Source of the DNA: Lingula anatina
Lineage: Eukaryota > Animalia > Brachiopoda
Direction: 5' to 3'
DNA: 64,000 bases
NCBI GenBank assembly: GCA_051362555.1
Contig: CM120643.1
Location: 29,082,848 to 29,146,847, forward strand
In this document: positions 3,280 to 49,981 of the stretch, piece after piece
How positions within the stretch are numbered: the stretch's first letter is position 1
How the letters are laid out: the number at the start of each line of letters is the position of its first letter
The notes under the pieces: model-generated
The model's input: only the letters and a program-made list of their open reading frames with translations
Database searches by the model: none
What the model was told of the DNA's origin: nothing
Translations under genes and position numbers: made by a program

Positions 3280-5368
3280 AAGGACCAACGGTTACAGTAG
3301 ACGAGGTTCGCCTTGGAAAAGCAATTTAAGACAGATATAACTTGGGTTTTATCTCTTGGACTTAACGTTTTTCGGGTTAGAACAGGAATAAGAATGTAAT
3401 AGTTCACTTGATGATGTTTTTTGACTTCAAGTACACAAAGTGAAAAAAGGGCAGGACCGATAGTAAGTAGACCTGACTGGAGTGAAAAATTATTTCGTAA
3501 TGATAAAATCAACATCCATTTTTGTAATTGCTGGCCGAAACCGTTGAAAGGTAGGAGCACGCTTCAGTTTGCCCAGTTGGTTGAAAAAAAGTGCAGTGGC
3601 GGATTTAGGCGGGTGTCAGGGAGGTCCTGACCCCCATCGGTTTCTAAAAAAACACACCAATAGTCCCCTCTAGAATTTAGAATTTCGACTAGCTGAATCA
3701 TATAGCAGATCTCAACCGTACCCAATGGAACCGTTCGCCCTCCAAACACCAAAAAATTTGGAGATCCTTCGGCGGGCCCCCGAACCCCACGCCATGGGGG
3801 GGGGGGGTGGCGAGGGTAGGATTCCCATCCAAAGCCTGTGTTTCCTAATAAAAAATAATAAAATAAAGAACAAAATGGATTCCCCTTCCCTAAAATAATC
3901 CTAGATCCGCCCCGGGAGTGTTTAAACACTGAACCGAAGAGCTGCTTTAAACGCGTCTAATTTTACTCGATTTTAACAGGTCGCTGAATTGGAAAAGAAG
4001 TTGCAGGAAACAGACGTAGAACTGCGAAACAAGATTAGGCTTCAACAAGAACAGGTAGTGAAATGCGATGCTTTGGTGTCAGATCTCACCAAGAGATTGG
4101 AAAAAATTGAAGAAAAACAGGCTAGTGTAAAAGGTACGTGATGTATAAAGTCATGACAAAAAATAAAAGTTTTGAATTAAATGATTGTTTACGTAGTTGT
4201 TACGTAAGAGTAGAATAAAATCTATAGGCATCCTGCTAGGTAAGGGTGACACTTTTTAGTAGGGGGGTATAGATCCAAACCATGTTCCTGGTAGGCCTAT
4301 TGTCTGCACATATTTTCAAATGTTCTTTACCGAATCTTGCCTTCGGATTCTCGATTTCAGTGTGTCCCCGTGACTTTATTGAACTCTTTGGCAGCTGCTA
4401 CTATTATTCGACGGTTCAGAAGACTTGGCACCAAGCTCAGGAGCACTGTCAAAGTATCTCTGCCAATCTGGTTACTATAACTTCTAAATATGAAAATGAG
4501 ATCATATGGAAACATTTACCAGGTAAGTTCCTTTCCATTATGCTATTAGAGAGTTAATAGTTAATAGTTACAATTTTCAAGTCAAGGTGTGTTTGGGTAC
4601 AACTTTTATATACAGACATATACAGGTAGCATCTGTAGATATAACCATCGCCTGTGTCTGTCGTTGTCGTTGATAATATCCGTGTTACCTGTTGTGCGTA
4701 ATGAAAATTTGGTGTTTATTTTGCTGTTAAACATATTGTACTATTAACAAAATAACCTATTAGGTATTTCCTTCTTAATATCCGTACATTCGACAGCTTT
4801 TCTGTCTTGTTCCAATTCGTGAGCACTTGAATTTGTTGATGTCAGGCAAGTATCAGATCCACCAAACATAAAGGGCAAAAAAAGAAAGAAACTGATCAAT
4901 GTTCAACATTTTGAAATGTGATTTGTCATTCCAGTGTCCTATTTTTAAAGAAAATAGTTAGTTATTAGTGGTGGAAAAAACATAGCAACGAGAGTTGGTG
5001 TGCCCCCTAAATAACAATATGCAATACTTACAGTGAACAATGTACATTATGACTTTTATTAATTTTTTTAGAAAAAAATGTCCAACGCTTTTAATGTTCC
5101 TTTAAATATTTTCAATTCTTTAATTTTACAGGTAGGTTCAGTAAAGCACTGGTGGATAGGTGCTAGCGACCGGATATCCGAGGGGACATGGGTTTGGGTT
5201 GCCAACAACTCCAGACTCACGTACACCAACTGGAATAAAGGTGAACCTAACAACCAAGGTGGATCGGAAAACTGCGCGGAGTTAAACAAGGAAAGGGGGT
5301 CTCCCACGTGGAATGATGTTCCATGTAGTGGTACTCGACAATTTGTCTGTGAATGGTCTCGACTTTGA
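3280..5368 (+). CDS. Coiled-coil neck plus C-type lectin domain protein (EPN/WND, mannose/glucose-type); 5' exons unresolved
   Basis: Phase-consistent GT-AG exons: 3280-3305 (EGPTVTVDE, tentative), 3980-4133 (VAELEKKLQETDVELRNKIRLQQEQVVKCDALVSDLTKRLEKIEEKQASVK, heptad-like), 4361-4522 (CPRDFIELFGSCYYYSTVQKTWHQAQEHC...) and 5136 or 5142 to 5368 (WWIG...W.KGEPNN...ENC...WNDVPC...FVCE, stop TGA). Canonical CTLD motifs WIG, EPN and WND are present. Confidence 0.85.
3594..3915. mobile_element. hAT-like MITE in a lectin intron
   Basis: Termini CAGTGGCGGATTTAGG and CCTAGATCCGCCCCGG; a related partial copy lies at 25085-25328. Confidence 0.65.
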
Positions 5369-8013
5369 CAACAGTTTCAACCCCAGGACCAATGGCAATG
5401 TCATTGCATTCTTTTACGTTACACCTTTTACCTTTGTCAAACAATTTGATCCTTGTTAATACTTTACAGGTACATTTAGCTGGTTCTTTATTATTCCTTG
5501 TAGTTACCTTTCAGCCGTGAGAAAGCCTTTATCAATGAAATACGGTCTTTCTATTGCCTCTAAATTTCCCTGAGTGAATTTTGCAAAAAAAATCATGGAC
5601 GAATTTTAATAAAGATTTCAGGATAGATCACATATCATCCAGGAGAGAAATTTATATATTGGGGGACACCGTTCGATACATTTGGTTTATTTGATTGTTT
5701 ACTGTTTAAGCCGGGGATAAGAAAACAAGTTGTAAAATTAAGAAGGGGTAAATTTTTGGCTAAATATTTAGGTACTAATAAAGATGAGTAACATCTTAAT
5801 CATTTGATTCTGTTGGCATTTTATTTTTCATCCAGTCAGATTAATGTACATTACAAAAGTTGCATGAATATATCTAAATAAAATAAAATAAAAAAATGGC
5901 TGAGCATTTTTTAAAGTAAAATATGGAAACTACAAAAACACCACTTTTAGAAATATCTCCATACGTCAATAGTGCTGCTTAACATATTTTGGCAAATATT
6001 TTGCTTGTTCACTTTGAACATTTGGATAAATAAAGACAATGAGGACGCCACACTTCTACGGCAAAGTTGGAAGCAGATTATAGCACAAAATTATGTAATG
6101 CAACTACAGTGATATTTCAGGAAATTTGCAACATCCCACTTAAAGTGACAGCATATTTTTATATTCGTGACTCATGGGTGTCTTCAAAGTACCGGCATGT
6201 TTTAGACAGTTAACAACAGTTAACAAACAGGATGAAAACATTACATAATTACCTTTAAAATATGTGTATTTAATCACTAAAATAGAAAAAAAATTGAAAA
6301 TGGTGATACATATTATGCTTTAAATATCTTGAAATATGTAGTTTTGACTACTTGTAGTGGATTTACAGTGTCACAGAAAAACAGTTAAATATTCTACAGA
6401 CTGATTGGAGGACAACTGATTTTAAAGAAATAATATGATGATATGTTTAAAAAATTATACACAGATGGTTCTACTTAGTCTGTTTGATCTCTAACATTAC
6501 TTTGGCACTGCGAATGTAATAGTTCTATTTCAGTCTTTTGAGACAGAAACTGGAATGATTTGAACTCTGCAATTACAAACAAATATGATGACATACGTGA
6601 AACATATTAATAATTGTTCAATTAATTTTATGACTACATATGAGGGTAAAACTACATAAAAATAATTATGGGATTATTAGCTCTTGTTGGGTAAAAAATA
6701 AAAATATTTCTATCATTTCAAATATGGACAAAACTTCCTTCTTTTTTATTGTAAGTGAAAAATAACTAAATGAAAATAAATTTGAAAAACATACAGCAAG
6801 TACATCATAATTCCATGTACCATATTTGTTGAACATACATTATATACAAGTATAAACAATCAGTCACGTGGATGTGTTTGTGACTTCCATTGCGGTAGAG
6901 AAGACCAAGTTTTATCACATCTGTAAATGTGGTAGTTGTGATCAGACTGGAAGCAATCAAGATATCTGCTGTGCCCATTGGGTGATTAAAGGATCTGTTG
7001 TAATATCTGCCTAAAGTTGACAGATGGCCAGATTGTCTCAGAAGTAGCAACTAAGCTAATTTTACTTCTCCAGCCTTAATGAATGCATTAATGTCTTTAA
7101 AAATTACAAGAAAGAACTATGCAGGGTTAACGTTCTGACAACTTGACAAATAGGCTCCAAGAACCCTGTATATCTCTAATAAAATATACCAGTCAGGTAG
7201 AGTTCCCCAAAGAAGTTTGGGCCAACATTTGATCTTAATTGAAATGCAAAATCTAGGCTATCTTTAAGAAATGATGAATCTCTAGAAGTACACTTTAAAA
7301 AACGAATCATTGTTCTACAACATCACCTTATTCCCAATTTTAGAAAACATTTGCAATATTTCAACTAAGTAGTTTACTGATATATATATATATATATATA
7401 TCCTGCATCTAATACATTGTTTTTTATGTGGAGACCAACATTTGCTCTAAAGGTCTCTTGTGAAACTGATCCAGGGGCACATTCTAAACTGTTAATAAAA
7501 TCACAAGATATTTATGGTAAGAATTCAGGAAGACACCTTTCTAAAAGTGATTTATCAATACAGCACAACAGACCCCAGAATTCTTTTGGGTTACAAGCCT
7601 CAATCCAAGAAGCAACTTCCTGCTAGAATTCTTAGTCAACTAAGTCCTTTTTTCTAAAGGAGTGTAAAATACCCCTCAGCTTTTCTATCTTTCAACTATA
7701 ATTAGCTCCAAGAGCAATCAGTGACCCAAAAATAAGTCAACATGGAACTCAAATCTGGTGTAGAGAGCATCATTTTGTCAACAGTTTTATATACTGTGTT
7801 CCTAAGTGATGAAAGGAAAAAACTGAAATTCCAGGAAAATCTATAATTGGCATAGAGAGGTCAAATACTCTTTATGTTTTTTAGTTATACTTTTCAACTC
7901 TCTGTTCCTCTTATATTTGGCCACCATTTTAATTAAACTATCCACCAGTCATAATTGTTCCTCCTGCATGTCCTCTTTTATTTGGCCGCCATTATAATTC
8001 ACCTTTCCACCAA

Positions 8014-11000
8014 TCATAACTGTTCCTCTTGTATGTCCTCTTTGATTTGGTGGCCATTTTGATTATCATTCACATAGCTCTGTCTCTGGGAAAGGAAGTG
8101 TCTAAAATCAGGATTAAGTCCCCTCTGTTCATAGGGCACATAGTCATCATCATCATCGTCATCAGAGACTGGGGTACGCTGTATGTTCATATATTCTGGA
8201 AGGGGTGGAGGGGCCATTACTGATGCTGCTGCTGCACCAATGTTTTCATCTGAAATAGATAATTAATATAAAGAGGTGATTAAGTAAGAAATACAAAGCA
8301 TTTTATTTCTTTGTGCTTGTTGAAGGAGAGGAAAGTTGCACTACTGACAATATGCACTATTTCACTACACACTGACAATACCGGTAGTTCAATGAGCAGA
8401 TTTTGTCGTCATAAGCAATTTGAAAAGGAGCAGTTACCATATCTTGCTTTTTTTCAGGAATCATCATCAACAGTGTTTTTTTTTTTTATATAATAAATAT
8501 CTCTTAAAATTGATCATGCAAATACCAAAACTCTACAGTCTAACAACTCTTTAATGCCCTACAACACAGATACGATACCTTCTTCTGGAGTTTTTGTCAA
8601 GTCTCCCGGAGTCTTCGGCAATGGTCTCATGCAAAGATAAGGACGTCCAAGAGGAGACACCATGTCAGCTGGACTGTGCTGCCGCCTATCTTGTGCTGGC
8701 AGTGTGTTTGAAGGACCTGGAGGGTGTATGTAGCCAGAAAGTCCTGTAGGGTTGTGGTCTGAGGGGTGTGGGGGTGGGGGCAGAGAGTGAGATCTTGGCA
8801 TACCAAAACGAGCATCATGAACCACTGGTTCTCGGTCCAGAGGAAGTAGTGGTGCCGTGTGCTGCAACAACAAAGAGCAATGTATTCAATGCTGGGGCCT
8901 GTTTCACACAATGTTTTATACTAGGTTTAAATGGGCACAAAGTGGGCATTAGAGCACAGGATTTTAGAACTCAAGAACGGGATTATAAAGCATCATGATC
9001 TCAGTGGTTTTGAATGGGCTATGCCTTGGTGATTGGGGGAAATTGCTGAAATTTCCAAGAATTTTTTTTTTTTTTTTGTTATTATATACAGAGGTCTAAA
9101 TGTATGGACTTATTTTGAGAATCCTGATTGCAAGTGTGGAAAGCTGCAAAATGTAATATTGTACTTGTGCTACTTGTACTACATATACTACTACCATTAC
9201 TACTACATCTACTACATGCACAGTACTACTACTTTGACTTCTAAAGTTAATGCAGGACTTTTACAACTATTACATGTACTAGGGATTCTTGGACTACTTC
9301 TATATGTACTATAACTACATCTACATCCTGACAGCTTACCCTATGCCTTGCTGACAGTGCGATAGCCCTAGCGACCTCGTTCACTCTGGTGTAAATCTCC
9401 TCCCCCGAAACTGTGTTCACCACATACACCCCTTCCCCCGTCTTACAGTGCCTGGAATAGTCAACATCTTACAGTGCCTGGAATAGTCAACATCTTACAG
9501 TGCCTGAAATAGTCAACATCTTACAGTGCCTGGAATAGTCAACATCTTACAGTGCCCGAAATAGTCAACATCTTACAGTGCCTGGAATAGTCAACATCTT
9601 ACAGTGCCTGGAATAGTCAACATCTTACAGTGCCTGGAATAGTCAACATCTTACAGTGCCTGGAATAGTCAACATCTTACAGTGCCTGAAATAGTCAACA
9701 TCTTACAGTGCCTGGAACAGTCAACATCTTACAGTGCCCGAAATAGTCAACATCTTACAGTGCCTGGAACAGTCAACATCTTACAGTGCCTGGAATAGTC
9801 AACATCTTACAGTGCCTGAAACAGTCAACATCTTACAGTGCCTGAAACAGTCAACATCTTACAGTGCCTGAAATAGTCAGCATCTTACAGTGCCTAAAAT
9901 AGTCAACATCTTATTGTACCTGAAATACTCAACAACTTACAGTGCCTGAAATAGTTAATACTGACTTAATTCTGCTTCTGGGCCTGCTAGCATTAACATA
10001 GTTTTTATCATCATATTAGAATTTAATTGTTCACCAAGTTTACTCAAGATACAGAATTTTTATTATTCATTCACCAATACTGCGTTATCAATTAATTGAT
10101 CAAAAATAATTTAATAATTCATTTATTTTAGTTTATCTGGAATTTATCCATTTATAAATTCATTCATGAATTCATTTTTATATTAACATATTTATTTATA
10201 AACAATTCATATTTAAAAAGCAAACTTACCTTCCAGCCTCAAAGGTAAACTTAGACGAGTCTCCTCCATATCTCCTCAGGGCACTGACAGGCCATTCTAC
10301 AAGCTTTTTTCTTGGATTCTCTACATCCCATAATATTATCTTCTCCAGTGTGACCTGCAGCAGACACTCTCCACAAATGTCTAGGTTGGCGGCAGGTAGC
10401 AAGTACACATGAAATCTCTCTGAAAATAGTTCCCAAAAGTTGAAAACCAATTTTCTTGCATTTAAATTTGAAAGGCTAATAAATAGACATACCCTGTACT
10501 GACATAACATATTAATGATATATCTGGCAAAATTATTTTCTACCAAAGTAAAATTTTCATATGGTATGACAAGCAACCAAAAGATATAAAAATAACACAC
10601 TCTTTCTTTCTCTTAAATTTATATTTTCATTTACTCCAAAGTCATGGGTGATAACCACAAAACTTACCGCTCATTTCTCTGTGCATGCCTGCCTCCAAAA
10701 TATCTGGTTCTCCCAGGCTTATATTGGGTACACCACCCAGACATAACTGTTCCAGAGTCTTGATCCATTCAGTCGCCTCCAGGTCTAAGACAAGGAATAA
10801 ACAACTTAATCACTTAAATAATTAATGGAAAGGATGACAGAAAGACAGGCAGACAAATAGGTGTTAGAAAAAAAAATCACCTATCGCATATAAATCATAA
10901 GGAAATCAATATACACACTGTCAGACAGGAAATGTAGCTTCATTCACTATAAATGCTGATGTAAAATAATGTGCATTGCATCACTCTCTTATTGTTTCAG

Positions 11001-11559
11001 ATGAGGAAAAAAAACCTAAAAATTCTCACTTGGCTATATATATATTGACAAGAAAAAGAATTTAAAGTACAAGCATTGAAGCAATGAAGTAAAAATCAAC
11101 CCAACTTTTACATCGTAGAAAAAAAAAATGTTACCTGATCCACAACAGAAGAGGCGGGAACTTTCATCGTTAAACTTGATTTCAACTCCGTGCTTCTTCA
11201 CTTCCTGTGGCAACCTCTCTACTGCCTTGACATCTTTAAGGTCAATAATCTTGTGCTGTGCGCCACTTTTTGCTGCATCCTCGTTGAGGTATTTCTCTAA
11301 ATGATTGTGACCTTTGCTCGACATCCTGTGAAGTCGCACCCAGCGCTTGATCCATCGCTGGAAAAGATGGCGGCAAACCAAAATAAAAATGTGATTCACA
11401 CATAGCTGTTAATGCTGGGAAAATATCTCTGAGATCTAATACTACAGAAAATGGAAATATTCCATGCTTATCTGCAATATCTAATATTTTATATACTGGT
11501 AATGTATGGACAGTGTATCTTTTGATATCCCATAAATCGCCCAATTAGCAAGTCTCCTG

Positions 11560-14500: not shown

Positions 14501-14750
14501 CATGTTTTGTTAGAAATATACTTTAGAAATATGGATTCAAGGGTTTTGAAAAGCTTGCTGGTTTCATACAGTACTGTTTGTTCTTTTGAGGATCCAAAAA
14601 TGGTAAATCTTAGAAAAAGTAAAAAATTACAAAACTGAGGTGTATGAAAAGATAGAGTAATTACCGTAGCACAGCTGTACTTACCCCAAGATGTTTGCTC
14701 TTCATCTTCACATAACCCTGCCTGACTATATCATTGTAATTTATAGACAT
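8014..14750 (-). CDS. DOK: Docking protein DOK4/5/6-like (PH domain, IRS-type PTB domain, Pro/Tyr-rich tail), ~408 aa
   Basis: Exons 14750-14685 ([22 protein letters not shown]), 11357-11135, 10784-10668 ([11 protein letters not shown]...ISLGEPDIL), 10419-10230 (ERFHVYLLP...[10 protein letters not shown]...FTFEAGR), 9451-9340 (HCKTGEGVY), 8861-8579 and 8249-8014. All junctions are GT-AG, phases sum to 1227 nt, and there is an in-frame TGA just upstream of the ATG. The N-terminus and PTB motifs match vertebrate DOK4/5/6 as I recall them. Confidence 0.93.
9441..9960. repeat. 26-bp minisatellite, 20 units, spanning the DOK intron 4/exon 5 junction
   Basis: Unit TCTTACAGTGCCTGGAATAGTCAACA repeats with point variants; the last two units are degenerate. 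Confidence 0.97.
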
Positions 14751-15591
14751 CTTGCTTGCTCAACTTCTTTGTGATGATTCCTGAACTGATTTTCTAGCAG
14801 CTTCTCTTATACTCTCTCTGAGAAAATTACTGAGACAAATACTGTCACCCTTGCCAACAAGAGTTTTTCCTCAATACAAAGCAAAATAGTCTTCACTCCC
14901 TCGTTGAGAAAATATCAAACATGAAAAATGTATTTTCATTAGGTCTGGTTCTTTGCTGAGAAAAGTAATCAAATACCAATATACTTCATGTTAAGTCACT
15001 GGAAAACGATCCTTGAAGACCACTCTAGATCACTCAATGCATGCAGATGGAAGTTTAACTGCAGTATCGTCCCTGACACTTTATACAGTAGCTGACTCAA
15101 TTGAAGAGTCTCATATGGGCCAACTATGACTATAATTAGTCTTCTTCCACTGGTTTCAGTTTACACTAATACATGTGTTAGTTGGTTTCACTCAGATAAT
15201 AAGAGTTTCTATTGTAGACAGTAGTCTCTAATCAGTATCAGTAGATGGGGTTTCCAATTCCCAGTCAGAAGCCAGTTTTCAACAGGTTTCCACAAATTGA
15301 GTCAGAATTGTAGAAGGTGATGTTCTCACATGGTTGATATCTCTAATCTCTCACTGTAATTCAAACACTAGAGTTTTATTGAGCCCAGTTTATAGTCTTC
15401 ATTGGGTACAGCATAGGATTTCAAAGGTGAATGTAAGCAGATAATATATATATACTGGTAAATTGCCGCTTAGCTAATAAGTTATTCTGGGAGTTTTGAT
15501 CCCATCAGTGACCAATGGTCAGTTCTCTCTAGTTGTACGTGTTGACCATCCCTTTCTGATGGTCCAGTATGAGATTCCAGATGTGGCCAAC

Positions 15592-15802
15592 TCACTGCTC
15601 AGCTATGGTCACTCCCTGCTCAATTGTGGTCACTCCCTGCTCAGCTATGGTCACTCTCTGCTTAGCTGTGATCACTCTCTGCTCAATTGTGGTCACTCCC
15701 TGCTCAGTTGTGGTCACTCCCTGCTCAGTTGTGGTCACTCCCTGCTCAGCTGTGGTCACTCCCTGCTCAGTTGTGGTCACCTACTGCTCAGATCTGGTCA
15801 CT
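15592..15802. repeat. 21-bp tandem repeat, ~10 copies (TGTGGTCACTCCCTGCTCAGT), upstream of the DOK start codon
   Basis: The periodicity is directly visible and explains the repetitive ORFs at 15496-15875. Confidence 0.95.
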
Positions 15803-23763: not shown

Positions 23764-24642
23764 CGTCAGCTCTAATCAAAATGTTAGGAAAAAAGTGACT
23801 CCTTCGGGAATTGTACATGAACAGCGACATAAGTAAACCCAGGCTGTTGCTAGGAAAAAGTGCTCATCTGTGTTTTCGTGTAATAACTGTACAAAGATGC
23901 AGTGCAATCGAATGGCATATTATTAGCTTGAGAAATATGCTGTTTTATTTATCGTAAAGAGCACAGTGTTGCTGTTCCCTATAGAGCATGTTGAGGTTGG
24001 AGAAAAAACTGCCATGTTTCTCTTCAAAAAGTGGAGTTGTTTTATACTGCATTGTGGTGAAAATGGACAGCATTAACATGTTGAATCCAGTGTTGTATAA
24101 TAATTGTGATGTGGAGTCTTGAGGCTTGTATGGTGGGACATTGTGCCACTTCATTGTGACTGATGTTATAAACATGTCCACTGAATGTACTACTGTCATA
24201 TGTCAGGTTAAGTAGAGAATAAATGATGAACTGCACATGATTCTGTGGGGTTTTTATTACTAAATCTAATAGTGATAATGCCATTTAGATAATTAGTACA
24301 TTAGCATAGCACTTGCATTTCATTACAAAAAATTCTTGACCTTATGATTTTTCATTATTGTTAGTTTCGACAAATGCAGTAGAAAGAGAAAATATCAATT
24401 TTATGTCAAAGGAAAAAATGTTTTTAAAAAATGGACATTTAGGAACACATCAAGAATATCAAGTGGAATGTGGAAAATGATTTATTGTCAACAATATGTT
24501 CCAAATTGATTCACTAAATTCACATACAAATATCAACTGTTCTCTAAATCTGCCTGTCTTCCAAGTAAATGACAGCTATAGTTTAGTCAAAGAAACATGT
24601 CTTCCTTTGTAGAATATTTCGTCATCTTCTCCAGTAGGGAGT

Positions 24643-27600
24643 TCATTGAGTTGATCCTGTAAAAATAGCAAATATTTAGTTACCTTAATTATTTACTGTA
24701 CTTGAATGAAGAGATTGATTTTTTTCAGTACAACATATTATATTATTATATATATTATTATATTTAGTGTAATATTCTTTTCATATGACAGTAAACACAA
24801 AGAATAAATGGTCTCTATATAACAACAAATGTTGAACTTTTCTGGAAATTACAATATCCCCCATAATCACCAAGGTATGCTATTTTACAATTTAATGAGC
24901 AATATCCCAAAAATGGACTTGATATAGATGTGCTTTCTCTGTACAATTCTGCAATTTAGAATTTAGTTTGCATGGTACCTTAAGACTAAGTGAACAAGGC
25001 AACAAAAATGCACAAAATAGTCCATTTTGTTAAATTTGACACAATAATTAATAATCCTTAATTTTTTTTTTCAAGAACAGTTCAAAATGAGTAAATTTCG
25101 ATTTCTGGTCATCTCTTGAAATTAGAATTTAGACTAGCTGAATCATAGTTCTAAACCTTACCAAATGGCATCGTTAGCCTTCTTAAATACCAAAAGAATA
25201 CCAAAAGTTTTGGGACCATTCAGTGGGCTCCGAACCCCACATCAAGAGGGGGCCCGGGGGAGGGGGAAAGGATCGGCTTCGCTTCCACGGACCCCCCCTC
25301 CCTTCAAATAATCCTTGATCCGCCCCTGAAAATTATGCATGCGCGTGTCAGCCATAAAATCAATGCAGTGTGGCATTAATGAACGACAAAATATAAGCAG
25401 AAAAAGACATTATTTAAATTTAAGACAGTGTTATAAATGAGAAGATTTCAAAATACTAACGAACACAGGAGGTATATCCATCTCCTTGGTAGCCATCTTT
25501 ACAGACACAGTATTGATGATATAGCTTATCGCATTCATCATGGTTTCGGCATTTTTTCTTTATTGTGCCATTCTTTAATTTCACAACGCACTCGGCATTG
25601 GTGGCACAAGACACTGAAAATAAATGAAAATATGTCTGTGCTTTCGTTTTTAGGTATCACCACACTCTAAAATTACTTTTGACATCTTTAAGACCCCATT
25701 CCCTGGATGTTCACGCTAAATAGCTGTCAGCCGAGTGGGCACGGAGTTAATTACCCCCTTACAGCTTGTAGTAGGCGGGGCGGACATTTAAGCCAGATTA
25801 TCTGACAGTAATCTAGAGAGACTCCCTACGGGGATAGATCGATCTAAATGTCTGGGAATACGCCCTTAAATACATGTGCGTCATGTGCTAAGGCATTGTA
25901 TTGTACGGAAAATAAGCTCACGTAATCTTCAGAATTCTGTGTACATTAACACAGGCGCACAGCAGTTTTTAATGACACAAAATTAACTCGATTGAATGTT
26001 GAAAATTATAATATTAAATTAACAAAAGTAATCTCTTTTTATATGTATTATTATTATTATTATATGATTTTTAGTGCTTTTACAATTTACATTGCACAAC
26101 TATTGGGGAACGTGAGTCCGTTGCTGCTATCAAGCATGGCAATAGCCTAAATAATGAAAGCTATCTATACCGACCTCACAAAAATATTCAAGTATGCACT
26201 TTTTGACGAACGCAACCTACATGTACCTTTGTTGCAAACGCGACCAGATCTTCCACCTGAGCAGTGACACCGAAAGTTACCATTATCGAGATCCGTGCAT
26301 GTCCCACCATTCAAGCAAGACTGAGAGTCGCAAGCTGTGATTTCTGGAAAAAAAATCGGACCTTGCCTTGACTGATAAGTGTGCATGATATAAATCCAAG
26401 TCACACACAGATGTAACACGCACATCACACTGACTCACCAAATCACCAAATCACTGTCAAAATTAAGATATTTTCACAGGTTTTTGATTTTCAAGTTCCT
26501 AATTTTTTTTAGCCATTCTTGTAATAGCAATGTGAACGGGTAAGTTCCACATTTGATGTTACTTACGAAAAGGTAATGTAAGCCTAGGAGGGAAGGAGCG
26601 TTTGACCATCAATTATAAACTGCAGGACAAACGATTATAAAATGCTTTAAAATACTTACTAGTACAGGAGGAATATCCATTGCCTTTGAAGCCCTTTTTG
26701 CAAACACAATATCGACCACTACTTTGAAAGCAGTCATTATTTTCCTCTGGTTTTTTCTCTATTTTGCCGTTCTGTTTCTCCAGAACACATTCAGCGTTGA
26801 CCGCACAAGGCACTATAAACAAGAGGCAAGTCATATTATGAAGAATATTCATGAAAATTAGTTCTTTTCATTTTTAATCTTGTTGTTATAAAGTTAATTA
26901 CTTACGCTTACACTAATTACAATTAATAATAAAAGGAAAATCAAATAGATGAAAAGTTAGAGTGATATTGAGTGTAAATTAAGTTTCATCAAGAGTCAAC
27001 AAGTGTAGATCCTGTTTTTAGTGTCAGAAAAAGATGGAAAAGGTCAAAGTCAATAACATTTAATGTGATTGGTTAATTTCATAACAGATTTTAATTTTGA
27101 TCAACTGTTTATCACATGATAACTGAGTTTTGGACATGATTCAAGTATGAGTAATGCAAATAGTATTTTGGATAAGTTTAGTTGAAAACAAGGCTCTTAG
27201 ACATTGCCTAATAAGGGAATGTTCTATGGTAAAGTCAACATGACAATGGAAAGTTTCTGGAAATCACGCCATAAACAACCAAAAGAACATAATTACACGC
27301 GTGATCAGTACGGAGAATTAGAGTATAAATATGGGTAAAATTGTACGAAAAGTGAGTGGTGAATAAATGATTCAAGACTCCAGAACCTCGTCGTCGTACG
27401 CGCGTTATAATAAATGGTGGAGGATGCGGGCATCGATCCCGCTACCTCGCGCAGCCAAACGGCACATATGAAGTGTGGCCTTCCTACAGACTCATATATG
27501 ACTCATTGATTTTTAAAAAAAAATTATTTCAAATATTACCCTAAGTAATTCTGTATAGGGTAGGCCTATAGGCCTATAGATGTGTATAGTCGTATACTGA

Positions 27601-27699
27601 AGTATCAGAATGGAAAACAGGACATTCCGGTGACTAGAATCCCGCCTTCGGCAAGACAGGCATGTAACATCACTAAACGAAGCATATGAGCTGATGTCA

Positions 27700-27734
<35 letters not shown>

Positions 27735-30177
27735 GGTAGCTAAGCTGTCGAAATAACAGACGAAAAGAAGAAAAAATGTTGCATAAATTGGTTACATGAT
27801 TCTGATGCAATATATAATGCTTTACAGCAAAATCAACATTAAATTTCAATTATGCCCAGCAGGTAACATGGAAAATAAGACTAGAGGATCAGAGTGGCGA
27901 CATCACAGCCAGATATTGCACTATCAGCGAGACTAACCTCATTCAAGGTTAGATGGTAGCTATGGATGTATCTGTTTTAGTTGTGGAGAAATAGGGATAG
28001 TAAATACGCCAAATGCATTTTATGAGGAAAAGTACGTAAAAAAATCAAATCCAAGGCCATATTACGATGCACAATATATATAATTTCCTATTGAATTTCA
28101 ATAGTATCAATGAGTGTATTTCTGCTAGTTTTGCAGTTATGAAGGTTAGAAATATTTGCAAACTACACTTTATGGTGAAAGTAGGTCAAAGGTAAAATTG
28201 AAGGTCACATTAAGGTAGTAACTTTGGGCGTTTCTCTACCAGTTTTTGGAGATTTTAGGGCCGGACATTTGCATAGTACATTTCATGGTGACAGGTAGAT
28301 CAAAAATCAAATATGAGATCATAATAAGATTGTCAATATACGACTTCCAGTTCAAGTTCAATTGTAGCAATCTAGTTTTGGAATAATTGACTTTTTTCCA
28401 CAATTTTTTTTAACCGTTGAGCTGTGCCTTTTGAAATAATGCAACTCCTAAATCATATTATAAAACACCAATTTATATCATCAACTGCATTCATTACATT
28501 AGAAAACAGCCATAGCGTACCTTTTTCGCAAGTGCTTATTGATCCTTCGGAACATTGGCATTTGGAATCACTGCCATCGAGGTAAACACACGTCGACTTA
28601 TTACTACAGGACCGATCCTCACATATTTCTGAAATAACAGCACAAAGTAAACTACTCTTACAGATTATTATTGTTTTATCAGTCCTTTTCTTGTCACATT
28701 AAGACGTATGTCATGATTTCTGCACATTTGCTGGGGGTATCCCAGCAAACACGTCACGTTCGGATCACGTGGCTAGCACGTTACTACCACATTATATAAC
28801 GTCATACACTACATAGCAACGTGCTAGCCGTTAAATCCGAACGTGACGTGTTTGCTGTAAATTTGATGCTCTAATGAGGCAAAAGCAGCAAGAAAAACGT
28901 TTTTCAAAATCTAAAAATAAATGAAAAAAGTTACCAGAGCAGGACATATATCCATTTCCAAAATAGTTCTTTTCACATAGGCAATAGTGGCCATTTTGTG
29001 TATTACATCCAGCATTATGTAAAGGCCTTTTCTTTAAATTGCCAGACTTCTTTTTAACTTCAATGCAATTTGCGTTTGCTGCACACGACACTGAAAAAGA
29101 ATGTAGAATCTATCTTCGGCGTTGCTCACAGCACAAATACCTTTTTCTGTCAGCGTACTATTTGACTTAATGGCTTAAATTATATCAATGAAGCACTTAA
29201 AATGGTACTGACACTCTGACTTTTAAAGGGACGTTTAGCGGGCTTCAGCCTGTAAAATTCCGTCTGCTGTTATGTAGGCATAGGATATTGCTTTACTAAA
29301 TAAAGCTAGAATAAAAATGTTCGCATGTTCATATCAGAACTATATAACCTTTAAATCGATTGATTTATAATCAATATATGATGTTCTAAATACAATTATA
29401 AGCAGTTTCTGGCATGTATTATAAAACAGTTTACCTTTGCTGCACCACATTCCATGTGTATTGTAAAACAATTTACCTTTGTTGCACCACATTCCATGTG
29501 TATTTCCGAGACATTTACACTTAAACCCATAATTTGTGTCATTGCGGTTGATACATATGCCGTTATTTAGGCAAGGCTGGGAGTCACACGGAGCTGAAAA
29601 GAACATTTTGCAGATAATTTAGATTTTAACCTGGGCTTGACTGAACAACTCCCTCCCTCAACCGCCCCCAGATTACAGACTCATAAGGGACTGTTCTTTT
29701 AATTGGTCTGGTATGCTGCTATATACAGATATAGATTGAGTCAAAACTTTCATGTGTCAAAGATAAAACCACGAAGTAATACAAGGCATTAAATAAATGT
29801 GGGCAATTGCTGAGTAATTTAAATCTAAAAATTAGAGTTATTCTTGAATAAAATTCTAAACCTTTTCAAACATGCAATTTGACACGTTCTGACTCATTTC
29901 ACTTCAACACTTCAAACTGAATTGTGTCTGCAGCCTTGTGCACAGTCAAAAATTCACATTTAAAACTAAGAAACATATTGCTCTCTCAGAATACAGAGAT
30001 ATAATCACTGTCTTTAATTTTTTTGTTTCTTGGACAAGAAAATACGTCCCAAAATTCCTCGGAATAATGGCCAATGTCACAGTGGCCCCTATACTTACAG
30101 TTTGCGGCAGTGTGGCTGACGAAGACACACACCATTAACGCTACAACGAGGAGCAGATAGAACGCCAATCCCTTCAT
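24643..30177 (-). CDS. Secreted EGF-repeat protein, paralogue A: signal peptide plus 3x(canonical EGF + atypical long-loop EGF)
   Basis: Exons 30177-30099 (MKGLAFYLLLVVALMVCVFVSHTAAN), 29593-29477, 29090-28935, 28628-28521, 26812-26660, 26343-26227 and 25613-25461, all phase-1 Cys-rich modules with GT-AG. The terminal exon 24656-24643 (RSTQ*) is tentative. Confidence 0.85.
25085..25328. mobile_element. Partial copy of the same hAT-like MITE, in the last intron of EGF paralogue A
   Basis: Shares GAATTT-GACTAGCTGAATCATA, CCGAACCCCAC and the terminal GATCCGCCCCTG with 3594-3915. Confidence 0.65.
25688..25869. mobile_element. TTAA-flanked MITE (Kolobok/piggyBac-type target), copy 1
   Basis: TTAAGACCCCATTCCC...TCTGGGAATACGCCCTTAA; homologous copies at 37941-38160 and, inverted and diverged, at ~43408-43670. 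Confidence 0.65.
27220..27458 (+). mobile_element. LTR fragment followed by an extended tRNA-Ala primer-binding site (Gypsy-like)
   Basis: An ~190-bp unit starting TGTTCTA, containing TATAAATA and AATAAA and ending TTATAATA, is followed after 2 nt by TGGTGGAGGATGCGGGCATCGATCCCGCTACCTCGCGCA, the complement of a tRNA-Ala 3' end including CCA. Confidence 0.7.
27415..27453 (-). pseudogene. 3' half of tRNA-Ala(AGC), positions 38-76, with encoded CCA (reverse-transcribed fragment, not a gene)
   Basis: The minus strand reads TGCGCGAGGTAGCGGGATCGATGCCCGCATCCTCCACCA: T-arm GCGGG-ATCGATG-CCCGC with the A54 typical of eukaryotic tRNA-Ala(AGC). There is no D arm or 5' acceptor strand. Confidence 0.85.
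28741..28857. mobile_element. Small palindromic MITE (CCCAGCAAACA terminus)
   Basis: Perfect 23-bp inverted repeat CAGCAAACACGTCACGTTCGGAT / ATCCGAACGTGACGTGTTTGCTG; absent from the matching intron of paralogue B. Confidence 0.75.
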
Positions 30178-32399
30178 CACTGATCAGGCTGATTTTAGAA
30201 TTAATGTTCTGCACTTCTCTTCTAGTATAAAATCAGATTTCATGAAGAGTGTCATAAAATTTCCACATCAACATTTTATCAAATTAGTATATTTTTAAAA
30301 TTTTGAAATCGAAATTTTTGTCAGCTTTGTTTTTTTAATTGCAAATTACTGTTTGATTAGACCTAGTTCCTTTCTCAAACATGAAATATATTTTAGATAG
30401 CTTAATCAATCAATCAATAATTAAAAAGACGCAGAAATGAATGGGAATTAGATAAGTAGCTCAAACATAATGCAAATTGATATGATACGATATAATCGGT
30501 TATACAGAATTCACACTGGGAGGAAAATAAATTGAAAAAAAAAACAATGGATAGGATAGGATAGAAAGGTGGAGCAAATGCCTGACAAACAAGAACAATC
30601 GCCGATACTAGTTTCAGTAGGTCACCAATTCCATCTCTCTTTCGTATGATTTGGCAAATGCACAACACTGCAACCCAAAATGTACATGTTCTTAAAAATT
30701 GTAAATAGCTTGAATTGTTACCGTTCTTCTGGATACACTGTATGTTTACCTATTATCTCATCTTTATGAGTACCGCACATAAACATTTTTCGTCGAGATA
30801 AAACCTACCTTAACCTACCTTAACCTCGTTTGTCTACACTGAATTCATATCGGGCAATGTGGCATCTACCAGTTCAAAATTGTTTTATTTAATTCACCTC
30901 CAGTATCATGGCGTCTGTCATGATGGTCGTCGTGGCTCGTTACAGAGTACTGTTTATGAGGACGGAGAACGGAATGCAACGAAACGCCGACAACTCCCCC
31001 CCCCCACCTCCTCCATTAACCTCCCCCCCCTCTCTCTCTCTCTCTCTCCATAAAATACATAGTATTGTACCTGACATTTTCCATCACTCTCTTTTTCTCT
31101 CACCTTTCCTGTATGAGCAACCCACATTGAAAAGTAGGCCTACTAAAACACTATACCACTAATTGAAATTTACCATGATAAATAAATGGAACTATATAAC
31201 CTTAATTGATCCGAAGTGAGGGTATAGGCAGTTTAGTGTTGATCCCGCCACTTCCATTTGATCTTAACTCCATATATGCTTGCACGCAGCCTGGTTGAAA
31301 TAACTCGATCCTTCTTCAAATTCGGTCATTAAGAAAACAAGTATACAGCATTGGTCAAAAAAGGTTTCCCCACCTCCAATTACATGGGCTTTTATTTACA
31401 AATGATCACTTCACAGTACCTGTGTGTGTGAGTGTGTGTGTGCGTGTGCGTGTGAGGTGTGTGTGTGTGTGTGTGCGTGTGCGTGTGAGGTGGGTGTGGG
31501 TGTGTGTGTGTGTGTGTGTGCGTGTGCGTGTGAGGTGGGGGTGGGGGGTCGAATCACGATGATGACAAATCGCTTAAGTGCCAAGATTTAAACATTAGTC
31601 TAGATATTGTCAAATTTGCGGACAGGTTTGTTTCTGTTCAAAATGTGGAATTGACTTTTACAGCATGCACTGTCATGTTGAATCCTATGTTGTATAATAA
31701 TTGTGATATGTATTCTTGATCAAGGCTTGTATGGTGGAACATTGCGCCAAATACACGTGTATACTATTGTCATTTGACAGGTTAAGTAAATAGTAAATAC
31801 TGTATATGATTCTAAAGACTTCATTCAAAGTCTTATTGTGCTTATTGTACTCTAAGCATAATATCAGGCATACTTCTCGCAAGTTTGCCGAAAAATTTGC
31901 TGCAAATTGGCAGCAATTAAATTTTTTTTTCTTGCAAATTTCTACAAACAATCTTCCGCAAACTTTTCATTTTGCTTAGGGTAGCTTTTGAATTTTCAAG
32001 TTCTCTTCTTGGTATACTTTCAATTTTAATAACTCACTACAGTTTTTATATCAAGAATATTCTTCAAGGTCAACTGATTTATTTTCGACAAATTCAAGAA
32101 GTATATAAAGAGAATATCAATCTGTCAAAAATATAGTTTTAAAGAAATTAAGATTTAGGAACACGTCAAGAAAGTGTTGTAATGCAATGTTGAAAATAAT
32201 TTATTGTTATCTACCTGTGCATGAACCAAATTGCTCCATTGAATTCAAATGAAATTTATTATCAACGGATATTCAAAACCGTTTTACTTCCAAGTGTATT
32301 TCTTGAAGAACTACAGATAAAGCCTGCTGTGATTTAGAATAAGAAATATATATGCCTTCCTTTGCAGAATGTCCGTTATAATCTTTAAGGAGAGCTTAT

Positions 32400-35300
32400 T
32401 TAATGGATCCTGTAAAAAAAAGAAACTATGTTTAGTAACCTTAATTTTTTCACTCCACGACTTTTCGGTTTTTCATGATCATAATATCGTATTATTTCCA
32501 GCGTAATATCCTTTTATACGAAAGTAAACACAGTGAGTAAAAGGTCATACATTACATTTTCCCTGAAATCCCAACTTTTCCCTTAATCACCAAGGCGAAA
32601 AAGGCAAAAAAAAGTCTTTTGTAGCAATGTCTTGCAGATACCTTCCTTTTTATGTATCTTTATTTCAATGTCGTTAACTTTTATTAAAAAGAAAAACACT
32701 AAAAGCCCCACTTCAATATATGGCTCTAGGGTTACCATGAAATGAGTGTACATTGCAATATTTAACGTTTAGTTTGTAAATCAGGACGTCTTTTCTTGGG
32801 AGGCACAGCCTAATCCTTGACAAATCACAAAAGCATTTTTTTTTTCACCCAAAAAGCGGGAATTTTAAACACCGGTTATTATATATATTGATACATAACA
32901 AAATATTTGGTATTTTTGAGAAGCAAGGTTGATATATTATCACAACAGTCAAACCACAAACACAAACCTGAACAAGACATACACACACCTACTCACTTGA
33001 TTTTTTCAAAGAGAAAAAAATAGAAGAATATAAAACAAAACAAAATCTTGAGAGCTTGTGGAACACTACTGTGGTTGACAGTGCCTGCGTCGGACGTAGG
33101 GTGATCTTCATTTGAAGAAAAAAACAAAATACAAGAAATAATTCACGAAATTAAAACGTTTGGTTGCATAAAATCCATAAGATAGGATATTGTTATAATT
33201 ATAAGTAGAAATAATCATACAGTGAGCGATGATTTGTTTACATAGATGCTAATACCCTTACAAAACTTCCAGCAGGATGTTCTATAAGACTCTATATGGG
33301 ACTCCACAGGAATCATACATGACTCTACAAAACCGATCTGCCGATCTTCATATAGTATTCCTATGTATGACTTATTTCCTATAGGAACCTATACGATTTG
33401 TGGTCAATTTGCTATGGGACCCTATAGGAAATTTCCGTAAGTGCATGCAGTTACGACAATTAGCCTCTTTCTCTTTCACGATAACTCGAAAAGTGGACAA
33501 AAAATTATGTGTTATTCATCCAAGCTCGAGGCGAAATACACCAATAAGGACTCAATACCTTCATTCAATACAACTCCGATTTCTACTTAGTATTTACTTG
33601 CACGCAATTTTGATTCACCATCACCGAGAAAAAGTGACGTCATACATAAAATAAGACAAATATATGTAATTAAAATTTAACAAAATTACAAGAGCAAAGC
33701 TTTTTCATAAAAAACAGGTTTCTAATTTTCTAATTTTATGAAGACGAAAATCAAAAAAATACTTACGAACACAGGAGATATTTCCGTTCCCATGGTAACC
33801 ATCTTTACAGACGCAGTAGTGGTTGAACACTGTATCGCATTCATCATTTTTATCGGGCATTTTCCTAATTGTGCCGTCCTTTAATTTCATTACACATTCG
33901 GCGTTTGTCGCACAATGAACTGAAAATACACTTAAGAAATTAAGCATCGTCTCACATCGAAATTGTATGTGTCATTTTTATAAAGATAATCATGTTATCA
34001 TTATTATTTATACTTTAACAAACTGCAACTACTTCTTTTGTATAAATAGCCTAAAACTCTTTTAATAAAGTGATCCTTTAGAGGGATAATAACTCTTCGT
34101 TTTGGCCAAAAATTGAGTTTTCCTGGATAAACAACAATTTCCCCATACTTACCAATGCTTAATGAATCTATTTTTAGAGGAGGAGTCCCTGGGTTTTTTT
34201 TTTTTTTTTTCTAAACAGTTTTTTGTTAAAATCTCTTAAGAGATTATAAGAGAGTATAGTCATCATTGGAGGTCACGTGGTCTGAAGACAAGCTCAGATA
34301 TCAGAATAATAGCTATAACTGCCGTTTTTGTGGTAAAACAGAATATACTATATTTCTACGAGTTGTTCACAATGTTTTTATTGTGAAATATAGATCTCAT
34401 ACGAAGAGTTATTATCCCTTTAACATTTTTGAACACAAGCAAACTACATGTACCTATGTTGCAGGTAAGGCCGGATCTTCTGCCTGAGCAGTGACACCGG
34501 AAGTCACCATTATCGAGATCCGTGCATGTCCCACCATTCAAGCAAGGCTGAGAGTCGCATGCCGTGATTTCTGGAAAGGAAGAAATTAATTAATTTCGAA
34601 AATTCAAGCCATCCACGAATTTAGCTACTACACCACGCTGACTCTGTATCTTTTCAAATATTTTCTCACTTTCTGTTAGTGGCCATAAGACACATCATGT
34701 CCACGACTTGACAACATTACAATGTATACACCATTTTATTATTATTATTATTATTTTCTTAAAGATTCTCTTTTTAAGCCACATTGAGATGAAAACTGAT
34801 AAATTTCACCCCTAATGGTGGCTAAAAAAAGGGTGGGAGGGGGGAGAAGCTAACAAAGGAGAAAGCGTTTGATCTGACATTAATTAACGTCAGGACATAC
34901 GTTGGTAAAATGCTTTAAACTACTTACTAGTACAGGAGGTATATCCATTCCCTTTGAACCCCTTTTTGCAAACACAGTATTGACCACTATTTTGAAAGCA
35001 GTCATTATTATCTTCCGACTTTTTCTCTATATTGTTGTTAATTCTGTCCACAACACACTCAGCGTTGGCCGCACAAGACACTGTAATGCGAAAAAAACCA
35101 CGAAATCTAGTCCAAAAATTTTTTATCTAGTTATTGGCACAGTAGTGTGAGTTGTGTCCTCGTTATAGACTCGAATGTGACGGATTAAATAACCAACGTT
35201 TCAGGTAATGATGCATGTTATTCTGTGCAGGCTATACATATAGTCGTGTTGGGAGTATCAAATGGAAAGTCAGAAGATTTCAGTGGCTAGAACCCCGCCT

Positions 35301-38300: not shown

Positions 38301-39248
38301 TCCCGACTAGTTCACACATAGTTCACGACGAGCAAACGAATAGTTTGCGAATGCGTTTCCACATTGACACGAACTGGCACGCATCCTCCCGCATCGTCCC
38401 GACGAGTACACGATGAGTTCACGAACAGTTTGCGCATAGTTCACTACCTGGCTGGGAAATTTTGTCGTGACCAAAATTTTGAACATTTCAAAATTCTCGT
38501 CCCGACATGGCACGCAGTTACGGCGAGATTTCGTATTTCACGCCAGTTTACGACTAGTTTGCGCACTGGCACGACTCGAGTCGTGCCAATGTGTGCCACA
38601 GAATCGTGCAAGTGTCAGCCTTGCTTTACAACGTACTCTTAGAGAGCAATCGCAACGAGAAGAGCCCAGGTCAAGCAAGGCTGAGACCTAAATATGGCGG
38701 ACCTACATGAAAGGAAGACTGCTAATTCTGTAATGGTCTCTCTCATGCCTCCCCACGGTCACCCCTGCAGGGACACAGTAATTAAATCTCGGCTCAATTC
38801 AACCGGTCGAGGGACGACGCGTGAGTGAGAGAGGCGGAGAGACCATTACAGGATTAGCGGTCTTCCTTTCATGTAGGTTCGCCATATTTAGGTCTCGGCC
38901 TTGCTTGACCTTGGCTCTTCTCGATGTGAATGCTCCCCTATAATCACCAGCTTTTTGTGATTTACTTAACACCAGGGGGAGGTGTTTTAATCTTTAAAAC
39001 TCACTGCATGCAGCCAGAGTCCCGCGGAGTTGGTTCGATCTACATAGACCAAGGGTGTCTAGGGATATGGAGCCCTAGTCTTTCTTGGACAGGTAAAAAA
39101 CATCCCAATCACCCCTCGTGAATAATGAACAGTCAATGTAGTCAATGTCACAGTGGCCCCTATACTTACAGTTTGCGGCAGTGTAGCTGACGAAGACACA
39201 CACCATCAACGCTACAACGAGGAGCAGATAGAACGCCAATCCCTTCAT
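32400..39248 (-). CDS. EGF-repeat protein, paralogue B, with a probable C-terminal GPI-signal-like hydrophobic tail
   Basis: Exons 39248-39170, 37160-37044, 36641-36489, 35612-35505, 35080-34928, 34570-34454 and 33919-33767 are collinear with paralogue A. Tentative exons 33105-32997 and 32409-32400 give HHPTSDAGTVNHSSVPQALKILFCFIFFYFFLFEKIKIH*. Confidence 0.83.
35936..36283. mobile_element. MITE-like insertion with ~40-bp inverted repeats in a paralogue B intron
   Basis: CTGTCACGATGAAGCCTGTAGTTATCCCTGAAGTCACCT versus AGGTCACTTCAAGGATGATTACAGGCTTCATCATGACAG. Confidence 0.6.
37210..37720. repeat. C-rich ~33-bp minisatellite (~15 units), G-tract-rich on the transcribed strand
   Basis: Unit CCCCGTCACCCCACTCCACCCCTACCCCACCCTACCT; it explains the Pro-rich ORF at 37203-37751. 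Confidence 0.95.
37941..38160. mobile_element. TTAA-flanked MITE, copy 2
   Basis: Its core is near-identical to 25688-25869 (GTTCACGCTAA...TTAATTACCCCC...GATAGATCGATCTAAA). Confidence 0.65.
38205..38625. mobile_element. Non-autonomous DNA transposon with subterminal ACGA repeats
   Basis: Inverted termini CAAGGCTGACGCTTGCACGA / TCGTGCAAGTGTCAGCCTTG; GC-rich relative to its flanks. Confidence 0.65.
38658..38920. mobile_element. Fold-back MITE with ~85-bp near-perfect terminal inverted repeats
   Basis: GAAGAGCCCAGGTCAAGCAAGGCTGAGACCTAAATATGGCG...GTAATGGTCTCTC is mirrored at 38838-38920. Confidence 0.85.

Positions 39249-49933: not shown

Positions 49934-49981
<48 letters not shown>

What the first reader, a model, noticed from the sequence alone, without database searches (positions are those of the whole stretch)
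9441..9960. A 20-copy minisatellite made of a splice acceptor: DOK exon 5 sits behind 19 decoy 3' splice sites
Seen: on the coding (-) strand each 26-nt unit reads TGTTGACTATTCCAG|GCACTGTAAGA, i.e. the last 15 nt of the intron plus the first 11 nt of the PTB-encoding exon (R-H-C-K). Only the last unit in transcript order continues into ...TGEGVY. Each unit has a branch-like TTGAC, a short pyrimidine run, an AG and, 5 nt later, a donor-like GTAAGA. Two units have lost the AG (CAG>CGG). Using any earlier AG shifts the frame or hits an in-unit stop. Inference: the spliceosome must bypass about 17 intact upstream acceptors, or use them as 5-nt microexons or recursive-splicing steps; three microexons (15 nt) would restore the frame. 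Copy number could then tune productive DOK output through NMD. It also looks like a natural intermediate of intron gain by tandem duplication of a splice junction.
Basis: partly seen in the sequence, partly recalled or inferred. Interest (0 to 1): 0.8.

Follow-up and report, generated by a model that had tools for sequence, protein, structure and literature searches.

The report
Repeated splice acceptor in brachiopod DOK
In a signalling-adaptor gene of what is likely the lamp shell Lingula, one intron-exon boundary is copied 20 times in a row; spliced RNA reads join only to the last, genuine copy while a minority of RNA still holds the repeat, so this is likely a tolerated, slightly leaky example of a repeat type already described in lancelets rather than a shown control switch.

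Summary
The array is real: 20 units of 26 nt (9441-9960), each 15 nt of intron 4 plus 11 nt of exon 5 of an intact 408-codon DOK5-like gene. 17 of 19 upstream units keep the AG, and every earlier acceptor gives a premature stop. A public protein named for Lingula anatina matches and uses the last acceptor. In RNA-seq, all 22 listed junction reads (6 of 8 runs) join exon 4 directly to 9451; no microexon or decoy joint was listed. However, 8 sense-strand reads in 2 of 4 runs lie in the array while introns 5 and 6 have none: roughly a tenth of transcripts, likely unspliced intron 4 or an early decoy. This is a 'mirage' minisatellite, described in amphioxus (PMC3087553, PMC3902484), with human donor-side parallels (F7, ABCA7). 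The intron looks old, so it is not an intron-gain intermediate. Copy-number tuning is untested. The scan reported this kind before on other DNA, including this genome. New member of a known kind; low interest.

The parts
9441..9960 (-). Array of 20 x 26-nt units; unit = last 15 nt of intron 4 + first 11 nt of exon 5
9340..9451 (-). Coding exon 5 (112 nt), second half of the IRS-type PTB domain; its acceptor is unit 20, the one used in spliced reads
   Evidence: (weak Pfam IRS hit, below cut-off)
9467..9960 (-). 19 upstream units; 17 keep the AG, units 9 (junction 9737) and 16 (junction 9555) read CGG
9909..9960 (-). Diverged 5' edge units 1 and 2 (4 and 5 differences); unit 2 is the only one with AG|GT (junction 9919)
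9452..10229 (-). Intron 4 (778 nt, phase 2), with a strong donor at 10229 and about 270 nt of unique sequence before the array
10230..10419 (-). Coding exon 4, first half of the PTB domain (best PDB match DOK5, E 1.8e-25)
10668..10784 (-). Coding exon 3
11135..11357 (-). Coding exon 2 (PH domain, Pfam hit below cut-off)
14685..14750 (-). Coding exon 1
   Evidence: loose ends at 11358 in run X7 read as this exon's end
8579..8861 (-). Coding exon 6
8014..8249 (-). Coding part of exon 7 to the stop codon

Best explanation
The 26 bases spanning the end of intron 4 and the start of exon 5 of a DOK5-like gene are repeated 20 times, spliced reads join exon 4 to the last copy, likely because the spliceosome defines exon 5 across the exon, and the array is likely a tolerated product of repeat slippage that leaves a minority of transcripts still holding it. 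Shown: the anatomy, the premature stops on paper, the junction used, and array-holding sense RNA in two runs. Inferred: (1) a local duplication of the junction seeded a minisatellite that grew by slippage or unequal exchange; (2) it survives because extra copies fall on the intron side, so the exon stays intact; (3) the last AG wins because it is nearest exon 5's donor and is the only one followed by the purine-rich exon body, since upstream context cannot tell the copies apart; (4) the array-holding RNA is mostly unspliced intron 4, or use of an early decoy, and would be an NMD target; this is a small cost rather than a selected switch.
For: Junction use: 16 loose-end reads at the exon 4 donor in 4 of 4 runs read as the start of exon 5, agreement 0.98-1; 6 more at 9453 in 2 of 4 other runs read as the end of exon 4. 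The public protein model also uses unit 20. Upstream context is identical to unit 20's for up to 84 nt in some decoys, while +12..+61 is 68% purine after the true site against 48% after decoy 13; using a decoy would lengthen the exon from 112 to 138-606 nt. Both flanking introns exceed 250 nt (778, 478), the size class in which human data show the upstream-3'ss preference much reduced and shorter exons favoured (PMC9225289, abstract, passages and section 9). Diverged outer units with a homogeneous interior, and AG lost in some units, match the mirage description (PMC3087553 passages). The two AG losses are the same variant unit, so probably one mutation copied, with no sign of selection against decoys (inference). 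Array RNA: depth 5 in X6 and 1-2.8 in X3 over 9470-9544 on the gene's strand, zero in introns 5 and 6 in 4 of 4 runs; the variants of X6's reads fit the 5' half of the array.
Against: Read numbers are small and include mates: perhaps half as many molecules, and overhangs of 10 nt or less cannot tell unit 20 from a decoy; 0 decoy joins in 8-16 informative reads still allows up to 17-31% decoy use. Runs X7 and X9 are mostly 90-99% alike, with many fixed differences, and may not carry this array. No DNA run was listed, so the allele of each RNA donor is unknown. The array share reaches about a fifth in X6 and is zero in X2 and X5, a spread that could be regulation as well as noise. In the human data the exon-definition class only reduces the upstream-3'ss preference rather than reversing it, so step 3 is not fully explained by precedent, and it was not tested in this animal.
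Confidence: 0.74

Rival explanations
1. Dosage rheostat: array length or a tissue-specific splicing factor sets how much DOK pre-mRNA is left unspliced or sent to a decoy and NMD, as the ABCA7 VNTR does in humans.
For: Array-holding sense RNA in X6 (5 reads) and X3 (3 reads), none in X2 and X5, none in neighbouring introns. All decoy products carry stops 77-563 nt before exon 5's donor. [quoted passage not shown]
Against: 8 reads; X5 has no exon 5 coverage at all; no genotype or tissue is known; no evidence of selection on the AGs; similar arrays are reported at many unrelated genes of this genome by unchecked notes, which fits a mutational habit.
Confidence: 0.12
2. Splicing is wholly clean, as reported for amphioxus mirages, and the array reads come from another locus with the same repeat or from ordinary pre-mRNA background piled onto a collapsed four-unit reference.
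For: No whole genome is held, so other copies cannot be excluded; a paralogous PTB domain exists in the species (P0002). No array read was shown to be joined to exon 4, exon 5 or the unique intron. X1 and X4 show no read on the unique part of intron 4.
Against: The reads carry the window array's two commonest variants and lie on the gene's strand; a uniform background would put all of them in the array with p about 0.0007 (8 reads) to 0.027 (4 fragments); the unit is absent from the rest of the window.
Confidence: 0.08
3. Stepwise removal: exon 4 is first joined to unit 2, whose AG|GT regenerates a donor, and is then re-spliced to unit 20 (recursive splicing); or 5-nt microexons are used in threes.
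For: Unit 2 reads CAG|GTACAA; after joining to exon 4 its donor would be about as weak as the exon 6 donor, which is used (inference). It would make RNA holding most of the array, as seen in two runs.
Against: Depth is zero over 9857-9964 in 4 of 4 runs and no joint to 9919 was listed; the intron is 778 nt whereas recursive splicing is described for long introns (PMC6110456, start of abstract only); junction consensuses have no inserted letters; microexons in adjacent units would need 21-nt introns, below the roughly 60-nt minimum quoted in PMC3265369 (passage).
Confidence: 0.03
4. The array is an intermediate of intron gain by tandem duplication.
For: PMC3087553 proposes, as a hypothetical model, that mirage units can become new exons and introns (passages); duplication of an exonic AGGT can make a working intron (PMC3265369 passages).
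Against: That route duplicates AGGT inside coding sequence; here 19 of 20 units read AG|GC or GG|GC and the duplicated piece is an existing acceptor. Intron 4 has its own donor and unique part, and 5 of 46 homologues break off at the same codon (three end R-stop, two run on as RYV/RFV), as expected from reading into a phase-2 GT donor (inference from protein only).
Confidence: 0.02
5. Assembly artefact.
For: No DNA run was listed to confirm 20 copies.
Against: Nine distinct unit types with a gradient of divergence; independent RNA reads run through more than four units (6 wrap-around reads).
Confidence: 0.01

Closest known systems
Amphioxus 'mirage' minisatellites (Adh3, troponin C, globins BflGb6/BflGb9, PGBD5); PMC3087553 and PMC3902484, passages read; the original 2002 Adh3 paper was not held
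   Same: Tandem repeat whose unit spans an intron-exon boundary; acceptor type as in BflGb6; unit size within the 10-160 bp range given; many but not all units keep the splice signal; diverged boundary units; regular splicing prevails.
   Different: Host is likely a brachiopod, not a cephalochordate; 20 copies against 3-6 in BflGb6; here a minority of RNA holds the array, whereas those papers report no interference with splicing; length instability not tested here.
Human F7 intron 7 VNTR (37 bp; PMC1557585, abstract and outline only)
   Same: Minisatellite whose terminal unit spans the exon boundary; identical pseudo-sites are functional but normally silent; the copy adjoining the exon is used.
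   Different: Donor side, explained there by 5'-to-3' scanning; here the used site is the last of the series, which simple 5'-to-3' scanning cannot give.
Human ABCA7 intron 18 VNTR (25 bp; PMC5954066, passages)
   Same: Splice-site-bearing minisatellite of near-identical unit length; leak into the repeat gives a frameshifted, NMD-type isoform.
   Different: Donor side, unit begins at the GT; a length effect is reported there and untested here.
Intron gain by segmental duplication of an exonic AGGT (Rogers model; PMC3265369, passages)
   Same: Local tandem duplication of splice-site-like sequence.
   Different: Creates an intron in coding sequence; here an existing, likely old intron is lengthened.

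Membership tests
Mirage minisatellite | Tandem repeat whose unit spans an exon-intron boundary | tested here: met
   20 units, 15 nt intron + 11 nt exon; boundary confirmed by RNA reads
Mirage minisatellite | Units duplicate the splice signal, many but not all intact | tested here: met
   17 of 19 upstream units keep AG
Mirage minisatellite | Regular splicing is preserved | tested here: met
   22 of 22 listed junction reads use 9451; qualified by 8 array-holding reads in 2 of 4 runs
Mirage minisatellite | Homogenised interior with diverged boundary units | tested here: met
   Units 1-2: 4-5 differences; units 3-19: 0-2. The exon-side edge unit is the consensus, not diverged.
Mirage minisatellite | Length instability between alleles or cells | not testable with these tools
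   No DNA run listed, no genome held
Intron gain by tandem duplication (Rogers/Hellsten) | Duplicated AGGT within coding sequence supplies both new splice sites | tested here: not met
   AG|GT in 1 of 20 units; intron 4's donor is outside the array
Intron gain by tandem duplication (Rogers/Hellsten) | Position intronless in relatives | tested here: inconclusive
   5 of 46 homologues show a break at the same codon, pointing to an old intron; protein-level inference, no orthologous DNA seen
Recursive splicing | AG|GT ratchet point in a long intron | tested here: not met
   One AG|GT unit with a weak donor in a 778-nt intron
Recursive splicing | Intermediate junction from the upstream exon to the ratchet point | tested here: inconclusive
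Microexon (5-nt, in threes) | Extra letters between exon 4 and exon 5 in spliced reads | tested here: not met
   All six listed junction consensuses are direct joins
Splicing-modulating VNTR (ABCA7 type) | Repeat length changes isoform share | not testable with these tools
   Needs paired genotype and RNA
DOK4/5/6-type docking protein (host gene) | N-terminal PH plus IRS-type PTB domain, closest to DOK5 | tested here: met
   Pfam IRS E 2.9e-9 on exon 4, PH E 0.00093 (below cut-off) on exon 2; DOK5 structure E 1.8e-25 against 1e-4 for DOK1/2

The most novel reading that the evidence does not exclude
Unlike the reportedly silent amphioxus mirages, this acceptor array measurably detains intron 4 or diverts splicing to an early decoy in a tenth to a fifth of transcripts in some samples, and its copy number or a tissue factor tunes productive DOK output through NMD: an acceptor-side, invertebrate counterpart of the ABCA7 VNTR and a natural ladder for testing how the spliceosome picks among identical 3' splice sites.
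Probability: 0.12. Interest if true: 0.5.

Novelty: new member of a known kind. Interest (0 to 1): 0.22.

Why it matters
As an ordinary mirage it adds a brachiopod example to a class named in amphioxus, and it is a clean natural test of 3' splice-site choice: 17 intact acceptors, several with dozens of identical upstream bases, lose to the last one, so the decision must be made downstream. The small new datum is that array-holding RNA is detectable, which the amphioxus passages read here do not report. If that share followed copy number it would show that such repeats carry a splicing cost or act as a dosage dial. I found no paper on mirages in Lingula in two searches and only two papers with mirage, minisatellite and amphioxus together; the library lacks most subscription journals, so this is weak evidence of absence.

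Tried and rejected
No whole genome is held, so other copies of the unit and genome-wide frequency could not be checked. The run search listed no holder of the stretch as RNA or DNA; the 9 rows came by species label, and 8 of the 9 were laid, each only 6-30% read. The interior of the array (units 5-16) was in neither laid stretch, and the two stretches were laid with different runs, so no single lay shows exon 4, the array and exon 5 together. Zero depth on units 1-4 does not exclude reads from the array interior, whose longest exact match to that reference is only 17-23 nt. One search used exon 3 and exon 6 ends one base off and gave a false early stop; one search corrected this. The second AG in each unit (TAAG) was checked as an acceptor: all 20 give stops at 200-206 codons. 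Exon 5 skipping gives a 276-codon frameshifted product; no such join was listed. Depth arithmetic for X3's two partly laid array reads fits an end at 9513, where unspliced reads crossing the array's 5' edge stop matching, and not 9505 or 9531, where exon 4-to-decoy joins would end; this rests on two reads and bin averages, so it is only a hint towards retention. The original mirage paper was not held. PMC11782384 (abstract) concerns direct repeats at intron borders generally and was not used. Searches gave nothing closer. Supplements were not read; Additional files 4-7 of PMC3087553 hold the mirage alignments and could bear on the comparison.

Full report
Observation. The array is as described. 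Tandem Repeats Finder gives 9441-9955, period 26, 19.8 copies, 93% matches and no indels. Cut at the acceptor register there are 20 junctions exactly 26 nt apart, from 9945 to 9451 on the minus strand. Each unit is 15 nt of intron end plus 11 nt of exon start. Eight units are identical to the last one, units 3-19 differ by 0-2 bases, and units 1 and 2 by 4 and 5. Units 9 and 16 share the same variant without the AG, leaving 17 of 19 upstream acceptors intact. The unit occurs nowhere else in the window at up to 7 mismatches.

Host gene. Seven coding exons on the minus strand (14750 to about 8014) with canonical GT-AG ends give an open 408-codon protein (one search was a first attempt with two ends one base off). 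Exon 4 matches the DOK5 PTB structure at E 1.8e-25, far better than DOK1/2 or FRS3, and Pfam IRS. The top homologue, P0001, is named docking protein 5-like of Lingula anatina and is 100% identical over exon 4; over its length it differs from the window by one substitution and one aspartate, and it continues from exon 4 into the exon at 9451. The window is therefore likely Lingula. The array fills most of intron 4 (778 nt, phase 2).

Consequences on paper. Using any of the 19 earlier positions ends the protein at 212 or 218 codons, with the stop 77-563 nt before exon 5's donor, which would meet the usual 50-55 nt NMD rule (rule recalled). The second AG in each unit also leads to stops. The in-unit donor-like motif matches the U1 consensus at only 5 of 11 places and is present in the true exon too; the exon 6 donor scores 5 as well and is used, so weakness alone does not exclude it.

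Which acceptor is used. Nine RNA runs were listed by species label; eight were laid, each 6-30% read. On 9857-11450 (exons 2-4 and units 1-4), runs X1, X4, X7 and X9 each gave 4 loose-end reads at the exon 4 donor whose consensus is the start of exon 5 past the repeated 11 nt, agreement 1, 1, 0.98 and 1; depth was zero from 9857 to 10180 in all four and no joint to units 1-4 was listed. On 8070-9544 (exons 5-7 and units 17-20), X2 and X6 each gave 3 loose-end reads at 9453 reading as the end of exon 4; X3 and X5 had none listed, with little or no exon 5 coverage. So 22 of 22 listed junction reads, in 6 of 8 runs, are direct joins to unit 20. Limits: the tool lists only forms seen in 3 or more reads, mates count twice, very short overhangs are uninformative, a few partly laid reads are unaccounted for, and X7 and X9 carry many fixed differences from the window and may lack the array. 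Zero decoy joins in 8-16 informative reads allows up to 17-31% decoy use.

A result against 'fully silent'. In one search the array end has depth 5 in X6 and 1-2.8 in X3, on the same strand as the exon reads, with six reads wrapping from 9544 back to 9441, i.e. running through more than four units; X2 and X5 have none, and introns 5 and 6 have zero depth in all four runs. Eight reads over a 520-nt array correspond to about 8-13% of pooled exon depth, about a fifth in X6 alone, less if those animals have longer arrays; a uniform background would place them all there with p about 0.0007 to 0.027. The variants in X6's reads are the two commonest in the window's array and fit its 5' half, if the haplotype is similar, which points to unspliced intron 4 or an early decoy, not to units 17-19. 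Bin arithmetic on two X3 reads hints at the unspliced 5' edge. could not have caught interior reads (longest exact match 17-23 nt), though X1 and X4 show no read on the unique intron either. An origin at another locus is not excluded, since no genome is held. These reads also make an assembly artefact unlikely.

Mechanism. Several decoys share 27-84 nt of upstream sequence with the true site, so branch point and pyrimidine tract cannot separate them; what differs is downstream: a 112-nt exon against 138-606 nt, and 68% against 48% purine after +11. With both flanking introns above 250 nt, human transcriptome data show the preference for the upstream 3' site much reduced, and the authors conclude that sites closest across the exon are favoured (PMC9225289: abstract, passages, section 9). 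I infer exon definition plus exonic enhancers; this is untested in this animal. The array likely persists because extra copies land in the intron. The TTGAC adenine lies 10 nt before its own AG, likely too close to serve it, but 36 nt before the next unit's AG.

Age of the intron. Of 46 homologues, 41 continue past the FEAG motif into the next PTB segment and 5 break off at that codon, three as R-stop and two as RYV or RFV, which is what reading into a phase-2 GT donor gives; the window's own exon 4 reads on as R-stop. This indirect, protein-level evidence suggests that the intron predates the array. The duplication route to new introns needs an exonic AGGT (PMC3265369 passages); only unit 2 has AG|GT.

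What is known. [quoted passage not shown] PGBD5 and troponin C are further cases (PMC3902484 passage). The original paper was not held. Human donor-side parallels are F7 intron 7, with silent pseudo-sites (abstract), and ABCA7 intron 18, with a one-unit retention isoform and a length effect (passages). I reached this reading before opening the scan's notes; they hold 28 such findings in at least 15 genomes and two reports of many such arrays elsewhere in this genome, all unchecked. In this window 1 of 12 DOK splice junctions has copies, and a nearby EGF exon has a doubled donor.

Verdict. Observation confirmed; interpretation partly supported. It is a mirage-type acceptor minisatellite, a new member of a known kind, mostly bypassed and slightly leaky. 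Interest 0.22; the rheostat reading has about 12% odds.

Noticed in passing
window 29415-29504 (-): 42-nt unit duplicated twice, spanning the donor of an EGF-domain exon; the paralogous EGF exon near 37160-37043 has a single donor. A second, two-copy junction duplication in this window.
   Followed up: partly
window 7906-8065 (-): 65-nt unit x 2.5 spanning the DOK stop codon; the extra copies lie in the 3' untranslated region.
   Followed up: partly
window about 24000-31200 and 31600-40800: Large internal duplication (64-87% identical blocks about 8-10 kb apart) of an EGF-repeat gene on the minus strand.
   Followed up: no
window 48200-56700: Several dispersed 0.4-1.2 kb repeats at 72-93% identity; none of the five ORFs scanned there hit Pfam.
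   Followed up: no
window 45421-46527 (-): 368-codon stop-to-stop frame, the longest in the window, without a Pfam hit at E 0.001.
   Followed up: no
window 15578-15802: 21-nt x 10.7 minisatellite about 830 nt upstream of the DOK start codon; whether it lies in an untranslated exon was not checked.
   Followed up: no
window 37210-37719: 39-nt x 13 G-rich (minus strand) minisatellite in an intron just upstream of an EGF exon; not junction-spanning.
   Followed up: partly
protein P0002: A public model of the same species fuses a protein kinase domain to a C-terminal DOK5-like PTB domain (76% identical over exon 4); its gene is not in this window. Could be a real fusion or a merged gene model.
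   Followed up: no
window 10230-11357, runs X7 and X9: Two runs under the same species label carry about 30 substitutions each over three exons relative to the window, while X1 and X4 show one each: possibly a distinct lineage.
   Followed up: no
window 8144: 3-nt deletion in the aspartate run of exon 7 in 11 reads of three runs, matching the shorter run in P0001: a coding length polymorphism.
   Followed up: partly
window 4273-4557 (+): Frame with a C-type lectin domain hit downstream of DOK on the opposite strand.
   Followed up: no
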